Positions 1 through 8,023 of a DNA stretch of 64,000 nucleotides are shown here, piece by piece (position 1 is the first letter of the stretch; every line of letters begins with the position of its first letter). Below the pieces are notes generated by a model. It ran no database searches. It saw only the letters and a list, made by a program, of their open reading frames with translations, and was not told the DNA's origin. The DNA lies in assembly GCF_003364115.1 (NCBI RefSeq), contig NZ_NXLL01000007.1, positions 18,373 to 82,372 on the forward strand, written 5' to 3'. A program made the translations under genes and the position numbers. Origin of the DNA: Helicobacter sp. MIT 00-7814 (GTDB taxonomy: Bacteria; Campylobacterota; Campylobacteria; Campylobacterales; Helicobacteraceae).

Positions 1-191
1 TCTCACTTGAATATGTGATTTAAGTAAGAATTAAAAGCGTGCTTTTGGCGCGCTTGCGCTTAGTTAAAATTTTTGAATTGTGGAGAATCTAGCGGAGATT
101 CTCTAAACTTCAGAAATTTTTTAAATCTGTAAGATTTTAAGGAATTTCTGACGCCTTTAGTTAGGTGTAAGGAAAAATTTAAGGAGAAATT

Positions 192-731
192 ATGAGTAAT
201 CAAAAACCAGTAGCAACGAGCTGCACGAGATTAGATCCGATTGATAAGGCAGGATTAGAAGCTTTGATAAAAGATGGCAAGGCAAATCCAGATGTGATAA
301 AAACGCTCAAATGTAAAACCGTCGCAGAGGGGCGTTTCCGCCATGCGAACTATATCCGCAACCTCCCAGCTTACATTGTCGATGAGCCACCAACCTTGCT
401 TGGCGATGACACCGCGCCAAACCCTAGCGAAGCGGTGTTAGCAGCGCTTGGAAGCTGTTTGGCTGTGGGGATTCACGCAAATGCAATCGCGCAAGATATT
501 GTCATCACAAAGCTTGAATTGGAATTGGAAGGTGATTTAAACATTACCGCTGTTTGGGGCACGGGCGATCTTTCAAAAGACAAACCGCTAGGCTTTACGC
601 AGGTGCGTGTGAAAGTGATTTTAGAATCTAATGCCTCAAAACAAAAGCAAGATGAGCTCATCGCGCATGCGACGAAGTATTCCCCGGTGGCAAACACTAT
701 CTTGCGCGCGGTAGATTTGGATATACAATAA
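192..731 (+). CDS. OsmC/Ohr-family (organic hydroperoxide resistance / peroxiredoxin-like) protein
   Basis: 179-aa ORF with AAGGAG RBS; size and conserved Cys-containing segment (LGSCLAVG) typical of OsmC-like proteins; call from family-level resemblance only. Confidence 0.55.
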   Translation: MSNQKPVATSCTRLDPIDKAGLEALIKDGKANPDVIKTLKCKTVAEGRFRHANYIRNLPAYIVDEPPTLLGDDTAPNPSEAVLAALGSCLAVGIHANAIAQDIVITKLELELEGDLNITAVWGTGDLSKDKPLGFTQVRVKVILESNASKQKQDELIAHATKYSPVANTILRAVDLDIQ

Positions 732-1801
732 TGTCCGCGCAGATAAACGCGCTAGATTCCGAGCTTTTGCAAAATGCGCTTGCGGGCTTAAAAAGCGAGC
801 GTGCAAAAATCCACGCCGGAAGCTACCCTAGCGAGATTTTACACGCATTTGGCAAGGCTGGGCTGTATGAACCCTTTGCCAAAAACGGCGCAAAAGGCTT
901 GCAAGAAGCGCTTCTTAGCGTGCAAAAAGTTTCAGAATCTTGCGGAAATAGTGGCTTTTGCGTGTGGTGTCATCAAGCGCTTTTGTGGTATTTACTAAAC
1001 TCTGCGAATAAAACTAGCGCGCAAAAGGAGCTTTTCTCAAAGCTTGCAAGCGGGGAAATACTCGGTGGCACGGGGCTTTCAAATCCACTCAAAGCTTTTG
1101 TAGGCTTAGATAAAATGCGCCTAAGTGCAAAGCGCGTAGAGGGCGGATTTATCATCAATGGCACTTTAGCATGGGTGTCAAATCTAGCGCCCGGGCATTA
1201 TTTTGCCTTTATCGCGGAGGTTGAAAATTCTAAGGATTCTCAACCATGTCCGCCAAAGCCCAAAGAATGCATTATGGCGCTGGCGTGCTGTGAGGGCGCG
1301 CTTAAACTAAAGCCAACCACGCCTTTTTGCGCGCTGGAGGGCTCGGGGACTTATGCCACGCAGTTTAGGGATTATTTTGTGAGTGAAAAAATGGTGCTAG
1401 CAAGCCCGGCAAGCGCGATGATTCCAAAGATTAACGCGGGGTTTGTGCTGCTACAATGTGGCATGGGGCTAGGTATGAGTGAAGGCGCGATAAGGGCGAT
1501 GCAAAGAAACTGCCACAATAAAGCGCGCGTGCAAACGCTCTGTGCGCAAAAAGAAAAGTTAGAGCAAAGAGTGGCGAAAATCGCGCAAAACCCTTACGCA
1601 AAAGGTGCTTTTAGTGCGTCATTGCGCGCGAAGCTTGCAATTATCAAGCTTTTAAATGAGCTAGTCACTCTTTGTGTTTTGCAAAATGGCGCTAGCGGGT
1701 ATTTCCAAGGCGCGTATGCGAGCAAACTTCTTTTGGAATCTGCATTTTTTGGGATTGTAAGCCCAAGCCAAGGGCATATACAAAAGATTTTGGAAGCTTA
1801 G
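731..1801 (+). CDS. flavin-dependent oxidoreductase of acyl-CoA dehydrogenase-like fold (tentative)
   Basis: 356-aa ORF translationally coupled to upstream gene (ATAATG overlap); weak resemblance to ACAD-type N-terminal/middle domains; no firm motif. Confidence 0.3.
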   Translation: MSAQINALDSELLQNALAGLKSERAKIHAGSYPSEILHAFGKAGLYEPFAKNGAKGLQEALLSVQKVSESCGNSGFCVWCHQALLWYLLNSANKTSAQKELFSKLASGEILGGTGLSNPLKAFVGLDKMRLSAKRVEGGFIINGTLAWVSNLAPGHYFAFIAEVENSKDSQPCPPKPKECIMALACCEGALKLKPTTPFCALEGSGTYATQFRDYFVSEKMVLASPASAMIPKINAGFVLLQCGMGLGMSEGAIRAMQRNCHNKARVQTLCAQKEKLEQRVAKIAQNPYAKGAFSASLRAKLAIIKLLNELVTLCVLQNGASGYFQGAYASKLLLESAFFGIVSPSQGHIQKILEA

Positions 1802-1804
1802 TCC

Positions 1805-1915
1805 TTGTGTCACTTGTGCGGGGTTTTGTCCGCACAAGTTCCGATCCTATTCCTTCAATTAGTATCGTCTGCGTGGAAACGAATCGCACTTCGCCTCCGC
1901 TTCGCGCGCATACTC
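1805..1915. repeat. GC-rich palindromic repeat element (hairpin 1812-1821/1830-1839 plus conserved tail gaatcgcacttcgcctccgcttcgcgcgcatactc)
   Basis: perfect 10-bp inverted repeat acttgtgcgg/ccgcacaagt; related copies at 54425-54530, 19840-19875, 20670-20715. Confidence 0.5.
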
Positions 1916-1970
1916 TATCTTTTTTAATTAATGAGATTGTGAGATTCTATCGCCTTAGCTTAAAATCCAC

Positions 1971-2672
1971 TTATTTGCGCTTTTTGATTTCTGCGATACT
2001 TTCTACCACCACGCCCACGATGAGATTTAGCACGATAAAATTTGTAATGCAAATAAAGCTCACAAACACTGCCCACGCCCAATGATATTCCGCCATTACC
2101 GGGCGCACGATTCCCATCGACCAAGATTCTAGCGTCATTATTTGGAATAGCGTATAAAAGCTCTCCCCCAGACTTCCAAACCAATCCGGGAACTTCTCGC
2201 CAAAAAGATTCACACACAAAACCCCATAAGTGTAGTAAAACACCACAAGAAGCGCGAGAATCCCAAGCATTGAAGGCAGAGTATTTAGCATAGCAGAAGA
2301 GATAAGGCGCATTGATGGGATAACGCTAAGCAAGCGGAAAACTCGTATCACGCGCAATGCTCTAAGCACAGATATACCATTGCCCGCCGCCACGCTCACA
2401 ATGACGATAATAAAATCAAACCAATTCCACCCGCTCTCTTTGCCTATGAAAAATCTAAATCCATACGCCATTATGCGCGCCAAAATTTCTACTACAAAAA
2501 TCACCAAACATACACTATCAACGCCGCTAAGCACCGCACCAAAGCGCGCGCTTACAGGCTGTATCGTATCAAGCCCCAAAGTAAGCGCGTTTAAAAGAAT
2601 TATGCTAGTGATAAAAATACTCCACTTAGTGGATTCCAATATGCGTCTAAGCCATGAAAAACACTCAAGCAT
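1971..2672 (-). CDS. NaChBac-family prokaryotic voltage-gated sodium channel (single 6-TM domain)
   Basis: S4 voltage sensor with Arg every third residue (LRALRVIRVFRLLSVIPSMRL); pore/selectivity filter FQIMTLESWSMGIVRP nearly identical to NaChBac/NavAb TLESWSM; WNWFDF S3 motif; ends right after S6 (no C-terminal coiled coil). Confidence 0.9.
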   Translation of the reverse strand: MLECFSWLRRILESTKWSIFITSIILLNALTLGLDTIQPVSARFGAVLSGVDSVCLVIFVVEILARIMAYGFRFFIGKESGWNWFDFIIVIVSVAAGNGISVLRALRVIRVFRLLSVIPSMRLISSAMLNTLPSMLGILALLVVFYYTYGVLCVNLFGEKFPDWFGSLGESFYTLFQIMTLESWSMGIVRPVMAEYHWAWAVFVSFICITNFIVLNLIVGVVVESIAEIKKRK

Positions 2673-2680
2673 AAAGCCCC

Positions 2681-3040
2681 CTAGTTTTGTATCGCTACTA
2701 TTATGAAAAACACCACGACTACTAGCGCGATGATTTTGCCAATTTTCGTGGATAGGATTTTGCCAAGGATATTGCCTAGTATTTCTCCGCCTGCCATTCC
2801 TGCGCTAAACGCATCGGGATTAGATTTTCTTGCGTTAAGCAGTTTTGTTGTGGTGCCATCGTTAAAAGTGATAAGCAAGATTCCACCATCTGAATCAAAT
2901 CTACTTCTGCTTATCTCTCGTCTGCCGCTTTCGTCCATATAAGAGTAGCTAGCGACTTTTTCATAAACGCGCTGTGAGCCGTTTCCTTGAGTTATGATGA
3001 GTTTTGAGCCTTGTTGTGTGATATTTTTTATTGTTGCCAT
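2681..3040 (-). CDS. hypothetical small protein with C-terminal transmembrane anchor
   Basis: 119-aa ORF, hydrophobic C-terminus (IIALVVVVFFIIVAI); 8 nt upstream of channel gene on same strand. Confidence 0.4.
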   Translation of the reverse strand: MATIKNITQQGSKLIITQGNGSQRVYEKVASYSYMDESGRREISRSRFDSDGGILLITFNDGTTTKLLNARKSNPDAFSAGMAGGEILGNILGKILSTKIGKIIALVVVVFFIIVAIQN

Positions 3041-3076
3041 TGTTTGTTCCTTTCAAATGTGGCGTATCAAGTGGGA

Positions 3077-3739
3077 TTATTGAAATTTATACAAAAGGAT
3101 TTTGTCCTGCATTTGGTTGTAAGATTCTATGTCGCCGAGCTGGAAATACATTTTTGCTAGCTCTTGGAGTTGCTCTATATTTGGCGCAGTTTGAGCTGTA
3201 TTTTGGCTAGCTCCATTTTGACTATTTGGCGCGTTTTTATCCAAATCTTTTTCTATATCCTTTAGCACTTGCAAGGCTTTGGCAGTATCGATTGTTTGTG
3301 TTTCATCTTGCGTGCCTTGTGTGGAATCTAGCCCATCTAATTTAGAATCTAGCCCGCTTTTATCTTGCGCTTTTTGCGTTTCTTTGGCATAGATTTTGGT
3401 TAGATTCTGCTTTGGTAGCAAGGATATGAGCGCATTTTTATCTTTTGTGAGATCATTTTGAAGCTGTGAGATTCTGATACTTTCTAGCTTTGGATCGTTT
3501 TGCTTGAGGTGCGCTAGGAGTTGCGATCGCGCATAGATTCGCGCGCGTGCTTGTCCTTTGGCGTCAGCCTTATCCACAATAGGCGTGCAAATCACAAAAT
3601 ATTCCTGCCCCTCCAATGCTTGCTCTAATACCTTAGAATCCTTGCCCTCACATATTTGCTTAGCCTTTTCAAGTGGCGCGCCTTGCAATATCGCTACTTG
3701 CGCGCAAAGTAAAAGCGTGCAAATCCTAGAAGTCTTCAT
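3077..3739 (-). CDS. hypothetical secreted protein (signal peptide, Q/D-rich C-terminal half)
   Basis: ORF 3077-3772; start moved to Met12 (3739) where a signal peptide MKTSRICTLLLCAQVAILQG begins and overlap with upstream gene is removed; start choice uncertain. Confidence 0.45.
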   Translation of the reverse strand: MKTSRICTLLLCAQVAILQGAPLEKAKQICEGKDSKVLEQALEGQEYFVICTPIVDKADAKGQARARIYARSQLLAHLKQNDPKLESIRISQLQNDLTKDKNALISLLPKQNLTKIYAKETQKAQDKSGLDSKLDGLDSTQGTQDETQTIDTAKALQVLKDIEKDLDKNAPNSQNGASQNTAQTAPNIEQLQELAKMYFQLGDIESYNQMQDKILLYKFQ

Positions 3740-4232
3740 ATTTTTTGCTTGGCTTTTTTGGTTTCGCGTCACGATTCCAGCCTAGTGTCACGCGCACGAC
3801 TTTTGAGCTTTTATTTACCTGCGCTTTTATCGTTACGACATTTTTGAGTATGGCTTGAGATTGTGAGCTGATATTTTGCGTGAGCGTATCGACATCTTTT
3901 TTGCTGACACTTGCTTCGCCTTCAGAGCTTTGCTCGCTTAGGATTTTGCTTAGTTGTTCTTGGGACTCTTGAGATTTGATATCCTCGCTTAGGTATTTGC
4001 TGATATAGGCTTTGGCGGATAGCTCGGCTTTGGTGGTGGCTTGGCGTATATCTTTGGCATCACCAAAGTGATAGCTTGCCTCGCCGATAGAGATGATACG
4101 CGTGATTTCTTTAGTCTGCGGGTTTATGACGATTTCATTTCTTTGCACACCTAGCGTTTGCATATCTTCAAAGTCATCAGCGAGCCCTACGCTCACACAG
4201 CATATTAAAAGTAAAGAAAGAAGTTTTTTCAT
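3726..4232 (-). CDS. putative lipoprotein, possibly LPP20-like
   Basis: AAGGAG RBS; signal peptide with Cys (LLLICCVSVG); 168 aa, size/composition reminiscent of Helicobacter Lpp20-family lipoproteins; family call tentative. Confidence 0.45.
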   Translation of the reverse strand: MKKLLSLLLICCVSVGLADDFEDMQTLGVQRNEIVINPQTKEITRIISIGEASYHFGDAKDIRQATTKAELSAKAYISKYLSEDIKSQESQEQLSKILSEQSSEGEASVSKKDVDTLTQNISSQSQAILKNVVTIKAQVNKSSKVVRVTLGWNRDAKPKKPSKKYEDF

Positions 4233-4255
4233 GGTTTTGTCTCCTTGAGTGTTTT

Positions 4256-5455
4256 TTATTGTTTTTTGAGCGAAAATGAAGCTTTTATTTCACTAAGCTT
4301 TTTTACCTCCTCTTGTGTGAGATAAACTACCACCATAATATCTGGCGCATCTACGAGGAATTTACCGCCATAAGGCACTAGGAATCTATTTGGCTCATAG
4401 TTTCGTGCTGCGTTATATTCCTCCTCGCTAAACTTTTCCAATTTATGCTTATTTACATGAGCTACAGCATCATTTCCTTCTGCTGGATTCTCTTGAAAAT
4501 AATTAGGAGTAAAAAATCTTTTTGCAGGTGGGAATTCTTTATTATTTGCATCAAAAAATCTCACCTGTAGTTTTCCATAGTCAAATTTATTTAACTCTGA
4601 TTGCACATAGTTTTGAAACAAATCATTAATCCTTAGACTCCACAATACCTGCACTGCTGGCGCAAGGGTATAAAATCTCACAACGCTAGCACTGCGAATT
4701 CCGCCTATCCCAAAAAAGCTATAAGGAGCCCGACAGCCTCCATTGCTTTCACTCTCACTACTATCGCAAACCTGCCCTGCACTAGAGAGAAGCTTTTTCA
4801 CACCTTCTAGGTAGCCCTTTTGATATTTGATGCTTAATGTAAGCACATAGGCTTTATATTTGGGATCTTTTGGCATTTTAAAGGTATAGCACCAATACAC
4901 CTCATCGCGGCAATATTGATAAATCTCCGTAAGCTCTAATGGATCAAATTTCAAAATCTTTGTCTCCCATGCCTCGCCACTTTTTAGCGGCTCTATAACA
5001 GTAGCTTGGAATGCCTCTTGGAAGTTTTCTGCTTTTTTGTGGCTTTCATCGACATAGACTTTGAAAGTCCCAGAGTTCATATCTTTGACATCGACATTGA
5101 GATCTTTTAGCACGCCTACAAGCTTGCCATCTTCTATTTCTACTTGCGCTTTGACTTCATAGAGCCCATGCTGATTTTTATTAGCTGAAAGCTGTTTATA
5201 GTCCAGCACATACGCATTGCTAAAGCCGATTATTTTTTCATTGAGATTCTCATCTTCTAGCACTTGTTTGGTGCGGACGTATTCGCCCATAGATTCTCGC
5301 ACGGCGTTGGCTATGGCATCTTTTTTAGCAGCTTCTACGCTTTCACCTATGCCAATAGATTCTGTCGTTATGCTAGCGTTGAGTCCTTGCAGAAAAACAA
5401 AGGCAAAAAGACAGGCGCATATTTGCGCGCGGAATGTTTGATAAATAGTTTTCAT
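4256..5455 (-). CDS. hypothetical secreted protein (399 aa)
   Basis: AAGGAG RBS overlapping stop codon of upstream DUF285 gene (translational coupling); N-terminal signal peptide; no recognisable domain. Confidence 0.5.
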   Translation of the reverse strand: MKTIYQTFRAQICACLFAFVFLQGLNASITTESIGIGESVEAAKKDAIANAVRESMGEYVRTKQVLEDENLNEKIIGFSNAYVLDYKQLSANKNQHGLYEVKAQVEIEDGKLVGVLKDLNVDVKDMNSGTFKVYVDESHKKAENFQEAFQATVIEPLKSGEAWETKILKFDPLELTEIYQYCRDEVYWCYTFKMPKDPKYKAYVLTLSIKYQKGYLEGVKKLLSSAGQVCDSSESESNGGCRAPYSFFGIGGIRSASVVRFYTLAPAVQVLWSLRINDLFQNYVQSELNKFDYGKLQVRFFDANNKEFPPAKRFFTPNYFQENPAEGNDAVAHVNKHKLEKFSEEEYNAARNYEPNRFLVPYGGKFLVDAPDIMVVVYLTQEEVKKLSEIKASFSLKKQ

Positions 5456-5471
5456 TAGCGCTCCTTAGCGA

Positions 5472-7337
5472 TTATATGCGTCTTTTAAATTCTCTTACGC
5501 ATGACTCGTTGCGACCACAGCGCTTGCATCGATAATAGTCTTTTTCTTCACCAACTTTGTAGCTTACTCTTCTATAACTACCATCGCTTTGCTTCTCATC
5601 TTGGGTGATAATATTTTCACTCAATAACTCCGTCTTTACGAGTTTCCAGCAAAAATAGTTTCCACAGGATTCGCAGTAAGTATCACCTTTAATGCCGTAA
5701 AATACACCAACTATAGAAAGCACGATTAAAATCGCCCAAATGGTGAAAAATAATTCTTCTGAATATGCAACTCCAAAATATTTTAAAATTGCAACAATAA
5801 GCAATGTAAGGAAAAACCCAACTAAACCGCCTACGAGGATACCTCCTCCCAAAAATGACACGAGTATAGTGCCAAACCTAGTAGAAGTGCGATACTTCCA
5901 ATCTATTTTTTTAGTATTAGCGCGCTGTTTTTTCATTCGTGCTTCTTTTTTGTATTCTGGGGAGCTTATGTCATCTTGCTTGAAGCTTGTCGCACCTTCA
6001 AACATATTCTTCATACTCAAAACTTTGCTTACATTCCATTTATTAAGTGGTTGATTAAAGCTTGTCGCACCTGCAAACATATGTCCCATATTTATAACAC
6101 TACTTACATTCCATTTATTAAGTGGTTGATTAAAGCTTGCCGCATCCGAAAACATAAGAGACATATGTGCAACATTGCTTGTATCCCAATTATTAAGTGG
6201 TTGGTTGAAGCTTTTGGCGCGCTTAAACATACCAGTCATACCTGTAACACTACTTACATTCCATTTATTAAGTGGTTGATTGAAATTTTCCACACCTGAA
6301 AACATAAGCCCCATATCTGTAACACTACTTACATCCCATTTATCAAGTGGTTGATTAAAGCTTGTCGCACCTGCAAACATACACTGCATATCTGTAACAC
6401 TACTTACATTCCAATTATTAAGCGGTTGATTGAAGCTTTTGGCACTCATAAACATACTATTCATATCTGTAACACTACTTACATCCCAATTATCAAGTGG
6501 TTGATTGAAATATTCTGCATTCTCAAACATACTACTCATATCTGTAACATTACTTACATCCCAAGTCTCTATACCGCTAAAGTCCTTGCGCTTGCTCTCT
6601 TTGAAAAGCTCGCTCATATTAGTGATAGCGCTTGTATCAATATCTGCTAATGAGACATCTTCATCAAAAGCTAAAACTTTTAATACTATAGGGCTAGTTG
6701 GCTTATATTTTCCATTAATTTTTTGAAACCCTTTATTAAACCAGCTAGGGAGGCTCTGCATACCGCTAGATTCAAACATATCTTTTGCAGATATTGCTTT
6801 AACATTCCAGCTTTCAAGATTTTGATTGAAGTTTGTAGCATCCTTAAATATAAGAGCCATATCCATAACTTTGCTTACATTCCATTTATCAAGTGGTTGG
6901 TTAAAGCTTGTTGCACTCATAAATATACCTCTAATTTCTGCAACATTGCTTGTATTCCAATTGTTAAGTGGCTGGTTAAAGCTCGTTGCATGCGCAAACA
7001 TACCTTTCATATTTGTAACATTACTTATATCCCAAGAATTAAGCGGCTGATTAAAGCTTTTCGCATCTGCAAACATAAGAGACATATCTGTAACACTACT
7101 TACATCCCAAGAATCAAGTGGTTGGTTAAAGCTTGTTGTACCCGCAAACATAAACTTCATATTTGTAACATTACTTACATCCCAAGTCTCTATACCGCTA
7201 AAGTCCTTGCGCTTGCTCTCTTTGAAAAGTTCGCTCATATCAGTGATAGCACTTGTATCAATATCTCCTAAGTAGATACTTTCATCATTAACTAGATTTT
7301 GTAGTTCTTCTTTTGAGGTGGGTTTGTATTTTGCCAT
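5472..7337 (-). CDS. DUF285 (BspA-type / Mycoplasma-type leucine-rich repeat) protein with internal module duplication, two predicted TM helices and C-terminal C4 zinc ribbon
   Basis: about 12 copies of the ~26-aa repeat F..A..FNQPL..WdVS.VT.M..MF; residues 1-215 and 215-430 are near-duplicates (both contain IDTSAITDMSELFKESKRKDFSGIETWDVSNVT); hydrophobic stretches then CESCGNYFC...CKRCGRNESC; no signal peptide. Confidence 0.7.
   Translation of the reverse strand: MAKYKPTSKEELQNLVNDESIYLGDIDTSAITDMSELFKESKRKDFSGIETWDVSNVTNMKFMFAGTTSFNQPLDSWDVSSVTDMSLMFADAKSFNQPLNSWDISNVTNMKGMFAHATSFNQPLNNWNTSNVAEIRGIFMSATSFNQPLDKWNVSKVMDMALIFKDATNFNQNLESWNVKAISAKDMFESSGMQSLPSWFNKGFQKINGKYKPTSPIVLKVLAFDEDVSLADIDTSAITNMSELFKESKRKDFSGIETWDVSNVTDMSSMFENAEYFNQPLDNWDVSSVTDMNSMFMSAKSFNQPLNNWNVSSVTDMQCMFAGATSFNQPLDKWDVSSVTDMGLMFSGVENFNQPLNKWNVSSVTGMTGMFKRAKSFNQPLNNWDTSNVAHMSLMFSDAASFNQPLNKWNVSSVINMGHMFAGATSFNQPLNKWNVSKVLSMKNMFEGATSFKQDDISSPEYKKEARMKKQRANTKKIDWKYRTSTRFGTILVSFLGGGILVGGLVGFFLTLLIVAILKYFGVAYSEELFFTIWAILIVLSIVGVFYGIKGDTYCESCGNYFCWKLVKTELLSENIITQDEKQSDGSYRRVSYKVGEEKDYYRCKRCGRNESCVREFKRRI
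5740..7271. repeat. coding periodic repeat array (~78-bp DUF285 units) with higher-order ~620-bp direct duplication
   Basis: e.g. 6551-6665 vs 7176-7285 nearly identical; generates long spurious antisense ORFs. Confidence 0.7.
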
Positions 7338-7340
7338 GTT

Positions 7341-7967
7341 TTATCCTTTGTTATAAACTTTGCATTTTTCTTTATTTGCTTTGACATAATCGATAAAGTT
7401 TTGCACATCCTCTGCCTCTGTAATTTCGCCATAGCAAGTTTGCCTCTCTGGGAGATTTGGGCGGATATTTTCAGGGATGCTAAGCGCATTTTTAGGGCCA
7501 AAGTAGTAAAACTCCTCGCACACTAGCACAAAAAGTGATTTCAAATCATGTGTTTTATCATCATCATGTGATTGACATCCCGCATTATTATGTGAGCAAT
7601 CTGAACCTGCTTCACCATTTGAAGGGTGATTTTTATTTGGAAAAACTTTAAAGCCTTGTGGTTCGTCTGCGCTAGGCTCATAAATATTATCACCTTGCGT
7701 GTTGGTGGCATCCGGGCGCTTTTGTGGGTAAGATTCCCAATACTCGGCAAAAGTTAGCCTTTTGGTGATTTTGGCTAGGTAGATGAGCTTTTCTTTTCCT
7801 ATTTCTGAGCCATCAAGTGTTTTGGAGCTAAAGCCCGCTATCCACTCGCCAACTTTCGCCACCTCTCTAATATATGGCTTGCAAGTAGCAAGAGTAAGCA
7901 CGCCAAAATCATAATTTGGCGCAAATCCACTATCTACGGTCATTTTATATGAACGAAGTAAGGACAC
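7341..7967 (-). CDS. conserved hypothetical protein (N-terminal motif DSGFAPNYDFGVLTLATCKP; possibly Nmad2-like nucleotide-modification-associated domain)
   Basis: 208-aa ORF, GTG start at 7967 preceded by AGGAGG; 3-nt gap to DUF285 gene; family assignment from memory only. Confidence 0.4.
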   Translation of the reverse strand: MSLLRSYKMTVDSGFAPNYDFGVLTLATCKPYIREVAKVGEWIAGFSSKTLDGSEIGKEKLIYLAKITKRLTFAEYWESYPQKRPDATNTQGDNIYEPSADEPQGFKVFPNKNHPSNGEAGSDCSHNNAGCQSHDDDKTHDLKSLFVLVCEEFYYFGPKNALSIPENIRPNLPERQTCYGEITEAEDVQNFIDYVKANKEKCKVYNKG

Positions 7968-8013: not shown

Positions 8014-8023
8014 CCCCCCCCCC
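8014..8023. repeat. homopolymeric C10 tract (G10 on the minus/coding side) in promoter region of the 7967-1971 gene cluster
   Basis: minus strand reads TTTAATAAGGGGGGGGGGCATAATGCGAC...ATTAGGAGGTTCTGTG; tract abuts a CATAAT -10-like hexamer ~47 nt upstream of the GTG start. Confidence 0.85.

What the first reader, a model, noticed from the sequence alone, without database searches (positions are those of the whole stretch)
1971..2672. NaChBac-family voltage-gated sodium channel lacking the C-terminal cytoplasmic domain
The selectivity filter TLESWSM and the four-Arg S4 segment are textbook NaChBac/NavAb features. The ORF ends 12 residues after S6, so the coiled-coil/neck region that mediates tetramer assembly and gating modulation in NaChBac and NavAb is absent. 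The gene is the last member of the phase-variable cluster.
Basis: partly seen in the sequence, partly recalled or inferred. Interest (0 to 1): 0.6.

Follow-up and report, generated by a model that had tools for sequence, protein, structure and literature searches.

The report
Natural tail-less bacterial voltage-gated sodium channel
This Helicobacter gene encodes an intact NavAb/NaChBac-type voltage-gated sodium channel that naturally ends right after its last membrane helix, as do all its close Helicobacter and Campylobacter relatives, so it is a natural counterpart of the tail-deleted channels made in the laboratory and not a broken gene.

Summary
Window 1971-2672 (- strand) is a 233-aa ORF. 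It matches Pfam Ion_trans (8e-45) and aligns end to end with NavMs (1.7e-62) and NavAb (~1e-60). It has the NavAb filter TLESWSM, four S4 arginines and the conserved voltage-sensor residues. It stops at the NavAb-228 equivalent, two residues beyond engineered NavAb/1-226, so neck and coiled coil are absent.

This is not a frameshift. No frame downstream encodes a tail. A 94%-identical strain has the same stop, with dN/dS 0.07. All 42 closest homologues form one NJ clade with tails of 5-47 residues and no heptad repeat. These include Helicobacter spp., Campylobacter lanienae and metagenome sequences. The 80 more distant homologues carry 31-72-residue acidic-neck/coiled-coil tails.

The clade has also lost the S4-S5-linker basic residue that pairs with the neck glutamates in NavMs (0/43 against 68/80), and it has changed S6 positions.

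The host is Helicobacter sp. MIT 00-7814 (WP_115574537.1, "ion transporter"). The gene ends a tightly packed co-directional gene run, headed by a poly-G promoter tract whose length varies between strains (G9/G10).

Verdict: a functional, naturally CTD-less BacNav, which is a new variant of a known kind. I found no description in the searched literature. Interest is moderate.

The parts
1971..2672 (-). CDS of the 233-aa single-domain voltage-gated channel. It has the BacNav transmembrane core S1-S6 and no cytoplasmic C-terminal domain. It is identical to WP_115574537.1 of Helicobacter sp. MIT 00-7814.
2334..2363 (-). S4 gating charges R104, R107, R110 and R113 (RALRVIRVFR), equivalent to NavAb R99, R102, R105 and R108.
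   Evidence: R104 is invariant and R107/R110/R113 are at least 90% conserved in alignment A1
2115..2135 (-). Selectivity filter TLESWSM (residues 180-186), identical to NavAb T175-M181.
1971..1994 (-). Post-S6 tail AEIKKRK (residues 227-233, net charge +3) plus the TAA stop. It ends at the NavAb-228 / NavMs-E229 equivalent.
2304..2306 (-). Codon for L123 in the S4-S5 linker, at the position of NavMs R119, the salt-bridge partner of neck residue E229. It is hydrophobic in 43/43 tail-less clade members and R/K in 68/80 CTD-bearing homologues.
2677..2682 (-). AGGGGG Shine-Dalgarno-like sequence overlapping the stop codon of the upstream 119-aa ORF. The gap to the channel ATG is 8 nt, consistent with co-transcription and translational coupling.
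1812..1839 (-). Hairpin with a 10-bp G+C-rich stem (ACUUGUGCGG / CCGCACAAGU) between the convergent channel gene and the 356-aa gene. It is the likely terminator of the gene run. The whole 3' intergenic region is strongly structured (z = -4.1).
2681..7967 (-). Six co-directional ORFs upstream with gaps of at most 36 nt: Nmad2 (7341-7967), DUF285/PARCEL-repeat surface protein (5472-7337), 399-aa (4256-5455), 168-aa lipoprotein-like (3726-4232), 231-aa (3077-3772) and 119-aa tail-anchored (2681-3040). The 399/168/231 trio plus the channel is syntenic in Helicobacter sp. MIT 05-5293.
8014..8023 (-). G10 tract immediately 5' of a CATAAT -10-like hexamer, 47 nt upstream of the Nmad2 start. The same site is G9 in L082 and G10 in L083. 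A G11-CATAAT arrangement heads the equivalent gene run in Helicobacter sp. MIT 05-5293.

Best explanation
The gene encodes a functional homotetrameric, voltage-gated, Na+-selective channel of the BacNav (NaChBac/NavAb/NavMs) type. It consists of the transmembrane core only. S6 runs as one helix to the last residues and ends in a short basic stub (AEIKKRK), in place of the usual acidic neck and four-helix coiled coil. The missing tail is the ancestral state of a whole Helicobacter/Campylobacter clade, not a lesion in this genome. Assembly would have to rely on the domain-swapped transmembrane contacts alone, as it does in engineered NavAb/1-226. By analogy with that construct and with NavMs delta-223, I infer that gating is set by the voltage sensor and S6 without the CTD 'brake'. 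That would mean easier opening (a negative shift of activation), no CTD-dependent use-dependent inactivation, and inactivation kinetics set by the altered S6 hub. The clade replaces NavAb T206 with N/S/G, a Pro with S205, and the Met at the S6 end with I/L. It has also dropped the S4-S5-linker Arg/Lys that pairs with the neck glutamates in NavMs, so the linker-neck interaction has been lost from both sides. Shown here: homology, intact functional residues, absence of a CTD, clade-wide conservation, purifying selection and the co-varying substitutions. Inferred: tetramerisation, Na+ selectivity, the direction of the gating changes, co-transcription with the upstream lipoprotein genes, and any physiological role.
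For: Homology and fold: Pfam Ion_trans 8e-45; NavMs 1.7e-62 and NavAb about 1e-60 over residues 8-231; the AF2 model has pLDDT 89.1 and a continuous helix 199-232, and its best PDB matches are NavAb chains, including NavAb 1-226 (6mvy), and NavMs. Functional residues aligned to NavAb are retained: N28, D35, D52, F59, E62, R66, D86, R104/107/110/113, T180-M186, N216 and gate V222. It is not a truncation artefact. There are stops in all frames and no CTD-like coding downstream. The same stop codon occurs in strain L082, with 32 synonymous against 9 non-synonymous differences and dN/dS 0.07. Clade-wide pattern: the top ~40 homologues have tails of 5-47 aa, and named members are Helicobacter sp. 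MIT 05-5293 (231 aa) and C. lanienae (233 aa). H. labetoulli, H. magdeburgensis and an uncultured Helicobacter have 24-33-aa low-complexity tails, while 70+ other named species have 26-72-aa tails with a coiled-coil pattern. An NJ tree on the TM core places all short-tail sequences in one clade, with heptad scores of 0-2 against 3-6. Co-variation: position 123 is L/V/I/M in 43/43 against R/K in 68/80; position 205 is S in 43/43 against P in 72/80; position 226 is I/L against M in 77/80; position 211 is G/S/N against T in 65/80; the first 10 tail residues have net charge +0.3 against -2.9. Literature: NavAb-delta40 (=1-226) gives robust currents, a -14 mV activation shift, faster voltage-independent early inactivation and no use-dependent inactivation (PMC6363407). 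NavMs delta-223 is functional with about 7-fold slower inactivation and lower current density (PMC3791462). The NavMs E229-R119 interaction motif is described in PMC5460950.
Against: There are no functional data for this protein or for any clade member. Truncation phenotypes differ between BacNavs: inactivation is faster in NavAb but slower in NavMs and NavSulP, NaChBac 233-delta is non-functional, and NaChBac 239-delta is poorly inserted into the membrane. The direction of any gating change is therefore uncertain. A 97%-identical allele (P0001) carries R107C at gating charge R2, and the H. cinaedi CCUG 18818 copy is frameshifted, which shows the gene is dispensable in some strains. Only a monomer could be modelled.
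Confidence: 0.8

Rival explanations
1. The gene is truncated. A frameshift, nonsense mutation or sequencing error removed the CTD, and the gene is a decaying pseudogene in this genome.
For: The CTD is described as a general feature of bacterial Nav channels (PMC9754703; PMC9303580). One relative, H. cinaedi CCUG 18818, does carry a 1-nt deletion that splits the gene.
Against: The stop is at the same codon in an independent strain that is 94% identical at the DNA level, with dN/dS 0.07. The exact protein occurs in NCBI and Logan assemblies. All 42 nearest homologues lack a coiled coil. No CTD remnant exists in any downstream frame. The linker partner residue has co-evolved.
Confidence: 0.03
2. 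The channel core is intact, but the assembly or gating function of the missing CTD is supplied in trans by a partner protein encoded in the same gene run. Candidates are the 119-aa tail-anchored protein immediately upstream and the conserved 399/168/231-aa secreted proteins. The functional unit would then be a channel plus auxiliary subunit.
For: An 8-nt gap separates the 119-aa ORF from the channel ATG. The 399/168/231 trio plus the channel is syntenic in two Helicobacter species at 45/72/36% identity. TM2-domain membrane-protein genes lie just upstream of the channel in both the H. cinaedi group and C. lanienae. NaChBac truncations insert poorly without a tetramerisation domain.
Against: The 119-aa gene is absent from Helicobacter sp. 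MIT 05-5293, and no single neighbour is shared across the whole clade. The trio proteins look exported or lipoprotein-like, so they would sit on the wrong side of the membrane to replace a cytoplasmic bundle. NavAb/1-226 needs no partner.
Confidence: 0.07
3. The protein is a BacNav homologue whose role has shifted. With the CTD lost and the S6 hub and linker changed, it would no longer behave as a fast voltage-gated Na+ channel. It might instead be a leak-like or constitutively inactivated pore, or differ in ion preference.
For: The clade has diverged at the NavAb T206 inactivation hub, at the S6 Pro-to-Ser position and at the linker R119 position. Clade relatives carry altered filters, such as TLEGWSD/E, which is like the CavMr filter TLEGWVD. 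An R2-to-Cys allele circulates.
Against: In the window protein the filter is identical to NavAb and NavMs, and every voltage-sensor charge and counter-charge is retained. Purifying selection is strong. Engineered CTD-less NavAb remains voltage-gated and Na+-conducting.
Confidence: 0.1

Closest known systems
NavAb (Aliarcobacter butzleri) and its engineered truncation NavAb/1-226 (NavAb-delta40; PDB 5vb8, 6mvy)
   Same: Identity is 43% over the whole TM core. The filter TLESWSM is identical. The four S4 Arg, the charge-transfer-centre residues, the S6 Asn and the fold are the same. The natural protein ends only two residues beyond the delta40 truncation point. NavAb also comes from the phylum Campylobacterota.
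   Different: Wild-type NavAb has a further 39-41 residues (neck plus four-helix bundle) that control use-dependent inactivation. Here that segment is naturally absent. T206 is replaced by N211, M221 by I226, and the stub is basic (KKRK) where NavAb has QKEE. In the NJ tree NavAb falls among the CTD-bearing sequences and is not sister to this clade.
NavMs (Magnetococcus marinus), with its delta-223 construct and its 'interaction motif'
   Same: It is the best-scoring single-domain solved relative (1.7e-62, about 46-48% identity). W77 is conserved as W82.
   Different: NavMs uses neck residues Q228 and E229-E231, paired with linker residues R119 and Q122, to stabilise the open state. Here the chain stops at the E229 position with a Lys, and R119 is Leu. 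NavMs delta-223 is an artificial construct with reduced current density.
NaChBac (Bacillus halodurans) and the 239-delta / 233-delta truncations
   Same: It is the founding member of the family, with the same six-TM architecture, four S4 arginines and a TLESW filter core.
   Different: NaChBac has the filter TLESWAS and a 39-residue tail with a heptad coiled coil. Its truncations express poorly in the membrane or are non-functional. The Helicobacter protein ends at about the NaChBac-242 equivalent and yet is under purifying selection.
CavMr / ancestor-like BacNav relatives (filter TLEGWVD)
   Same: Some members of the same tail-less clade (P0010, P0011, P0014, P0016) carry TLEGWSD or TLEGWSE, which resemble the CavMr filter quoted in PMC8002053.
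   Different: The window protein itself has the Na+-type TLESWSM filter. The CavMr relationship was not tested phylogenetically here.

Membership tests
BacNav (NaChBac/NavAb-type single-domain voltage-gated sodium channels) | A single six-TM Ion_trans domain of about 230-290 aa with the voltage-sensor plus pore fold | tested here: met
   Pfam PF00520 8e-45 covering residues 17-232. AF2 model with pLDDT 89 whose best PDB matches are NavAb and NavMs (prob 1.00, TM about 0.7).
BacNav (NaChBac/NavAb-type single-domain voltage-gated sodium channels) | An S4 segment with four Arg at every third position, plus the S1-S3 counter-charges and the charge-transfer-centre Phe | tested here: met
   R104/R107/R110/R113, together with N28, D35, D52, F59, E62, R66 and D86, align with NavAb N25, E32, N49, F56, E59, R63 and D80.
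BacNav (NaChBac/NavAb-type single-domain voltage-gated sodium channels) | Selectivity filter TLESW(S/A)(M/S) with the high-field-strength Glu | tested here: met
   TLESWSM at residues 180-186, identical to NavAb and NavMs.
BacNav (NaChBac/NavAb-type single-domain voltage-gated sodium channels) | A conserved pore-facing S6 Asn and a hydrophobic activation gate | tested here: met
   N216 is invariant in 123/123 aligned sequences. V222 lies at the NavAb I217 position.
BacNav (NaChBac/NavAb-type single-domain voltage-gated sodium channels) | A cytoplasmic C-terminal domain made of an acidic neck and an a-d heptad four-helix coiled coil, described as conserved in PMC9303580 and PMC9754703 | tested here: not met
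   Only 7 residues (AEIKKRK) follow the NavAb-M221 equivalent. The heptad score is 0, against 3-6 in 80 CTD-bearing homologues. There is no downstream coding remnant. The protein is therefore filed as a CTD-less variant of the family and not as a canonical member.
BacNav (NaChBac/NavAb-type single-domain voltage-gated sodium channels) | Homotetrameric assembly | not testable with these tools
   Only a monomer could be modelled. Precedent: NavAb/1-226 and NaChBac 239-delta form tetramers without the CTD.
BacNav (NaChBac/NavAb-type single-domain voltage-gated sodium channels) | A voltage-activated, Na+-selective, inactivating current | not testable with these tools
   This requires electrophysiology. 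It is inferred only from conserved residues.
Phase-variable (contingency) locus | A homopolymeric tract in a promoter or 5' coding region whose length differs between closely related strains | tested here: met
   The G tract at 8014-8023 is G10 in the window, G9 in L082 and G10 in L083, and directly abuts CATAAT. A G11-CATAAT arrangement heads the syntenic run in L086.
Phase-variable (contingency) locus | The channel gene is transcribed from that variable promoter | not testable with these tools
   The only evidence is indirect: the genes are co-directional, gaps are at most 36 nt, there is no convincing internal terminator (9 sites found against 7.5 expected by chance), and a hairpin follows the channel.

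The most novel reading that the evidence does not exclude
A whole clade of host-associated Campylobacterota (enterohepatic Helicobacter, Campylobacter) has dispensed with the BacNav C-terminal neck and coiled coil, and has re-tuned the S4-S5 linker and S6 to gate without it. In at least two Helicobacter species the channel would be expressed as the last gene of a poly-G phase-variable operon of exported or surface proteins. Voltage-gated Na+ entry would then be switched on and off at the population level together with surface antigens.
Probability: 0.15. Interest if true: 0.65.

Novelty: new variant of a known kind. Interest (0 to 1): 0.42.

Why it matters
The CTD of bacterial sodium channels has been studied for more than a decade. 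It has been treated as the tetramerisation module, as a temperature-sensitive gate spring, and as the controller of inactivation. All of that work used engineered deletions, and the results conflict between orthologues.

A naturally CTD-less clade under purifying selection offers an evolved, presumably well-behaved minimal BacNav. Its compensating substitutions are the linker R/K changed to a hydrophobic residue, the S6 Pro changed to Ser, the Met changed to I/L, the T206-hub changes, and the basic stub. These point to residues that could be tested for how the pore and voltage sensor are coupled without the neck.

A minimal channel of this kind could also be convenient for structural work or for engineering excitability. 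It is one of the few BacNavs from animal-associated Campylobacterota, a group in which the physiological role of such channels has not been studied.

On the other side, the protein family, the fold and the consequences of tail removal are already well known. The gene is already in RefSeq as a generic 'ion transporter'.

Tried and rejected
1. Frameshift or sequencing error. I translated all frames downstream and ran tblastn with 82 CTD-containing tails against window 1400-2100. Only noise came back.

2. Pseudogene decay. dN/dS against a sister strain is 0.07.

3. An anti-phage defence effector, prompted by the neighbouring Nmad2 gene. PADLOC found no hit for any of 8 cluster proteins. NCBIfam has no model for the channel.

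4. 'Loss of a temperature-sensing neck because the host is homeothermic'. This idea is weakened because rumen and gut Lachnospiraceae, Ruminococcus and Ruminiclostridium homologues keep 43-72-residue coiled-coil tails.

5. The 119-aa upstream protein as a conserved partner. It is not present in Helicobacter sp. MIT 05-5293.

6. Uniqueness of the tail-less state. Among 55 single-domain 50%-identity representatives, the median tail is 53 residues. Two unrelated clusters (P0151, filter TMESWAS; P0269, filter TLEGWSG) also have tails of 7-8 residues, so loss has probably happened more than once.

7. Literature. Eight full-text searches found no paper describing a Helicobacter or Campylobacter BacNav, or a natural CTD-less BacNav. 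The library lacks most subscription-journal papers, so absence is not proof.

8. The genome-contig scan did not return the window's own species (best hit 71%). The organism was identified instead by exact protein look-up.

Full report
**What is there.** Window 1971-2672 holds a 233-aa ORF on the minus strand, with an ATG start and a TAA stop at 1971-1973. The protein matches Pfam Ion_trans at 8e-45 over residues 17-232. Against all PDB sequences, its best single-domain hits are NavMs (5hvx, 1.7e-62) and many NavAb entries (about 1e-60). These align without large gaps over residues 8-231. Four-domain T-type Ca channels also score highly because each of their repeats matches. An AlphaFold2 model built on 42 homologues has mean pLDDT 89.1 and the expected helices. 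S6 is modelled as one continuous helix from 199 to 232. Foldseek against the PDB returns NavAb chains, including the 1-226 construct 6mvy, and NavMs as the top matches. By exact-sequence look-up the protein is WP_115574537.1 / RDU55491.1 of Helicobacter sp. MIT 00-7814, annotated only as 'ion transporter' or 'hypothetical protein'.

- TLESWSM is at residues 180-186 (window 2115-2135) and is identical to the NavAb filter.
- The S4 segment RALRVIRVFR supplies R104, R107, R110 and R113.
- Aligned to NavAb, the voltage-sensor counter-charges and the charge-transfer centre are retained: N28, D35, D52, F59, E62, R66 and D86.
- The S6 Asn (N216) and a hydrophobic gate residue (V222, equivalent to I217) are also retained.
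- The chain ends ...VVVESIAEIKKRK. K233 aligns with NavAb E228 and, after the +3 offset of the 5hvx chain, with NavMs E229.
- The protein is therefore two residues longer than NavAb/1-226 (= NavAb-delta40). It has none of the acidic neck or heptad coiled coil.

**Is the short end real?** Five independent lines say yes.
1. Downstream of the stop, every frame on the coding strand meets stops within about 25 codons. The convergent 356-aa gene ends at 1801.
2. tblastn with 82 tails of CTD-bearing homologues against window 1400-2100 gives nothing above 16 bits.
3. A related strain (contigs L082-L085, protein P0001) is 94% identical in DNA and has the same length and the same stop. It shows 32 synonymous and 9 non-synonymous differences, giving dN/dS 0.07, which is comparable with the neighbouring genes.
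4. In the 5.8-billion-protein search, the roughly 40 best hits (52-97% identity) all have only 5-25 residues after the S6 end. Three exceptions have 36-47-residue low-complexity K/S/T/E/Q-rich tails. Named members are Helicobacter sp. MIT 05-5293 (231 aa), Campylobacter lanienae and Campylobacter sp. P0085 (233 aa).
5. Among 80 named genomes, only the Helicobacter loci (H. labetoulli, H. magdeburgensis and an uncultured Helicobacter, with 24-33-residue polar tails) lack the pattern. Every complete non-Helicobacter sequence has a 26-72-residue tail with the familiar '...EIxxLRxEIxxLK...' repeat. These come from Alphaproteobacteria, Colwellia, Pseudoalteromonas, alkaliphilic Bacillaceae, and rumen Lachnospiraceae and Ruminococcus.

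**Clade structure and how rare the state is.**
- A neighbour-joining tree on the transmembrane core places all 42 short-tail sequences plus the query in one clade. There was no bootstrap.
- A simple a/d heptad score is 0-2 in that clade and 3-6 elsewhere. NavAb falls among the CTD-bearing sequences.
- In the exhaustive search of 50%-identity representatives, the whole clade collapses to one representative (P0013).
- Of 55 single-domain representatives in the top 150, the median tail is 53 residues. Only two other clusters (P0151, P0269) are similarly tail-less.
- The state is therefore rare but probably arose more than once.

**Co-evolved changes.** I compared the 43 tail-less sequences with the 80 CTD-bearing ones in the same alignment.

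| Position (query numbering) | Equivalent | Tail-less clade | CTD-bearing |
|---|---|---|---|
| 123, S4-S5 linker | NavMs R119 | L/V/I/M in 43/43 | R/K in 68/80 |
| 205 | not mapped | Ser in 43/43 | Pro in 72/80 |
| 226 | NavAb M221 | I/L | Met in 77/80 |
| 211 | NavAb T206 | G/S/N (N in the window) | Thr in 65/80 |
| first ten post-S6 residues | neck | net charge +0.3 | net charge -2.9 |

In NavMs, R119 forms a salt bridge with neck residue E229 as part of the 'interaction motif' proposed to stabilise the open state (PMC5460950). The tail-less clade has lost both sides of that pair but keeps the invariant S3 Trp (W82). NavAb T206 is the 'hub' coupling activation to early inactivation (PMC6363407). 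These changes argue that the channel has adapted to working without a CTD, and has not simply lost a piece.

**How it most likely works.** Established results on engineered channels give the frame.
- NavAb-delta40 conducts robust voltage-dependent Na+ current. It activates about 14 mV more negatively, inactivates faster and voltage-independently during a pulse, and has lost the late use-dependent inactivation.
- NavMs delta-223 is functional in Sf9 cells, with lower current density and about 7-fold slower inactivation.
- NaChBac 239-delta still forms tetramers but inserts poorly into the membrane, and 233-delta is non-functional.
- Neck disordering favours opening in NavAe and NavSp (as quoted in PMC9754703).

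I therefore infer a homotetramer held together by the domain-swapped TM core. It would be Na+-selective, because the filter is identical to NavAb. It would be voltage-gated by an intact S1-S4, without the CTD's restraint on opening and without CTD-mediated slow inactivation. Its kinetics would be set by the modified S6. The basic KKRK stub at the membrane interface may interact with anionic lipids. All of this paragraph is inference. None of it could be tested with the tools available.

**Surroundings.** The channel is the 3'-most of seven co-directional ORFs: Nmad2; a DUF285/PARCEL-repeat surface protein; 399-aa; a 168-aa lipoprotein-like protein; 231-aa; a 119-aa tail-anchored protein; and the channel.
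- Gaps between the ORFs are at most 36 nt. Only 8 nt, with an AGGGGG motif, precede the channel ATG.
- Downstream, the 170-nt spacer to the convergent gene is strongly structured (z = -4.1). It includes a hairpin with a 10-bp G+C-rich stem.
- A G10 tract directly abuts a CATAAT hexamer 47 nt upstream of the Nmad2 start (8014-8023). The same tract is G9 in L082 and G10 in L083.
- In Helicobacter sp. MIT 05-5293, whose channel is 64% identical, a G11-CATAAT arrangement heads a run of 117-, 221-, 388-, 172- and 201-aa genes followed by the channel. The last three of those are homologues of the window's 399/168/231 trio, at 45/72/36% identity.
- The DUF285 gene is missing from the 97% strain.
- In the H. 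cinaedi group and in C. lanienae the neighbourhood is different: TM2-domain genes and small lipoprotein genes lie upstream, and an oxidoreductase gene lies downstream.

Co-transcription is not demonstrated, and the association is not clade-wide. PADLOC gives no defence-system hit for any cluster protein.

**Comparison with what is known, and novelty.** By its TM core, this is a BacNav. By architecture, it fails the one feature that reviews and primary papers describe as general to the family, namely the neck plus coiled-coil CTD. I therefore file it as a CTD-less variant of the family and not as a canonical member. Functionally, the nearest thing is an artificial construct, NavAb/1-226. Eight full-text searches found no report of a Helicobacter or Campylobacter BacNav, or of a natural tail-less BacNav clade. 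The library omits many subscription papers, so this is absence of evidence only.

**Assessment.** A specialist would find this useful rather than astonishing, because truncated channels are already known to work. Its value lies in being an evolved minimal channel with identifiable compensating substitutions, and in the possible link to phase-variable expression. Interest is 0.42.

Noticed in passing
window 8014-8023 (- strand G10); L082 4024-4032 (G9); L083 1414-1423 (G10); L086 2553-2563 (G11): A poly-G tract immediately 5' of a CATAAT -10-like hexamer differs in length between near-identical strains. It recurs in the same arrangement ahead of the syntenic gene run in Helicobacter sp. MIT 05-5293. 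This looks like a promoter-type phase-variation switch.
   Followed up: partly
window 9425-9435 (G11) and 26152-26161 (C10): Two further long G/C homopolymer tracts occur in the window. They may be additional contingency loci. Their gene context was not examined.
   Followed up: no
window 3077-5455 (-); L086 3656-5944: A trio of uncharacterised, signal-peptide or lipoprotein-like proteins (399, 168 and 231 aa) has no Pfam family. It is conserved next to the channel in two Helicobacter species (45%, 72% and 36% identity). The N-terminal parts resemble each other in an 'IGIGE...A(K/T)K(D/A)A...' motif.
   Followed up: partly
window 5472-7337 (-): A 621-aa DUF285/PARCEL-repeat surface protein (Pfam 5e-154) with a C-terminal TM region and a Cys-rich end is present here and in L001. 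In the 97%-identical strains L082 and L083 it is replaced by a 55-aa ORF, so it is a strain-variable insertion inside the gene run.
   Followed up: partly
L060 (H. cinaedi CCUG 18818) about 7400-7520: The channel orthologue carries a 1-nt deletion in a GGGG run (TATGGGGTG to TATGGGTG). This splits it into 224-aa and 100-aa ORFs. It is either a strain-specific pseudogene or an assembly error. Other H. cinaedi-group genomes have the gene intact.
   Followed up: partly
P0010, P0011, P0014 (TLEGWSD), P0016 (TLEGWSE), P0021 (TLDSWSS), P0034 (TLENWSV), P0051 (TLESWSN): Members of the same tail-less clade carry altered selectivity filters. Several resemble the Ca2+-selective CavMr filter TLEGWVD, which suggests that ion-selectivity switches have occurred within the clade.
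   Followed up: no
P0001 / L082 8001-8702, residue 107: The 97%-identical allele, found on 12 metagenome contigs, has Cys instead of Arg at gating charge R2 (RALCVIRVFR). This is an unusual natural substitution in an otherwise conserved S4.
   Followed up: no
L002-L004, L060 (H. cinaedi group) and L088 (C. lanienae), 0.3-3 kb upstream of the channel: One to three TM2-domain (PF05154) small membrane-protein genes, 51-59% identical between the two genera, lie just upstream of the channel together with small lipoprotein genes. This is a second recurrent neighbourhood for the tail-less channel.
   Followed up: partly
window 1802-1970 (- strand RNA): The 3' intergenic region folds much better than shuffled controls (-52 kcal/mol, z = -4.1) into three hairpins. 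That is more structure than a simple terminator needs. It is largely conserved in L082.
   Followed up: partly
window 731-1801 (+): The 356-aa convergent neighbour has no Pfam hit and only sub-threshold NCBIfam similarity to acyl-CoA dehydrogenases. It is translationally coupled to an OsmC-family gene (192-731).
   Followed up: no
P0151 (242 aa, filter TMESWAS) and P0269 (228 aa, filter TLEGWSG): Two unrelated 50%-identity clusters of single-domain channels also end 7-8 residues after S6. This indicates further independent natural losses of the CTD. Their taxonomic origin is unknown.
   Followed up: partly
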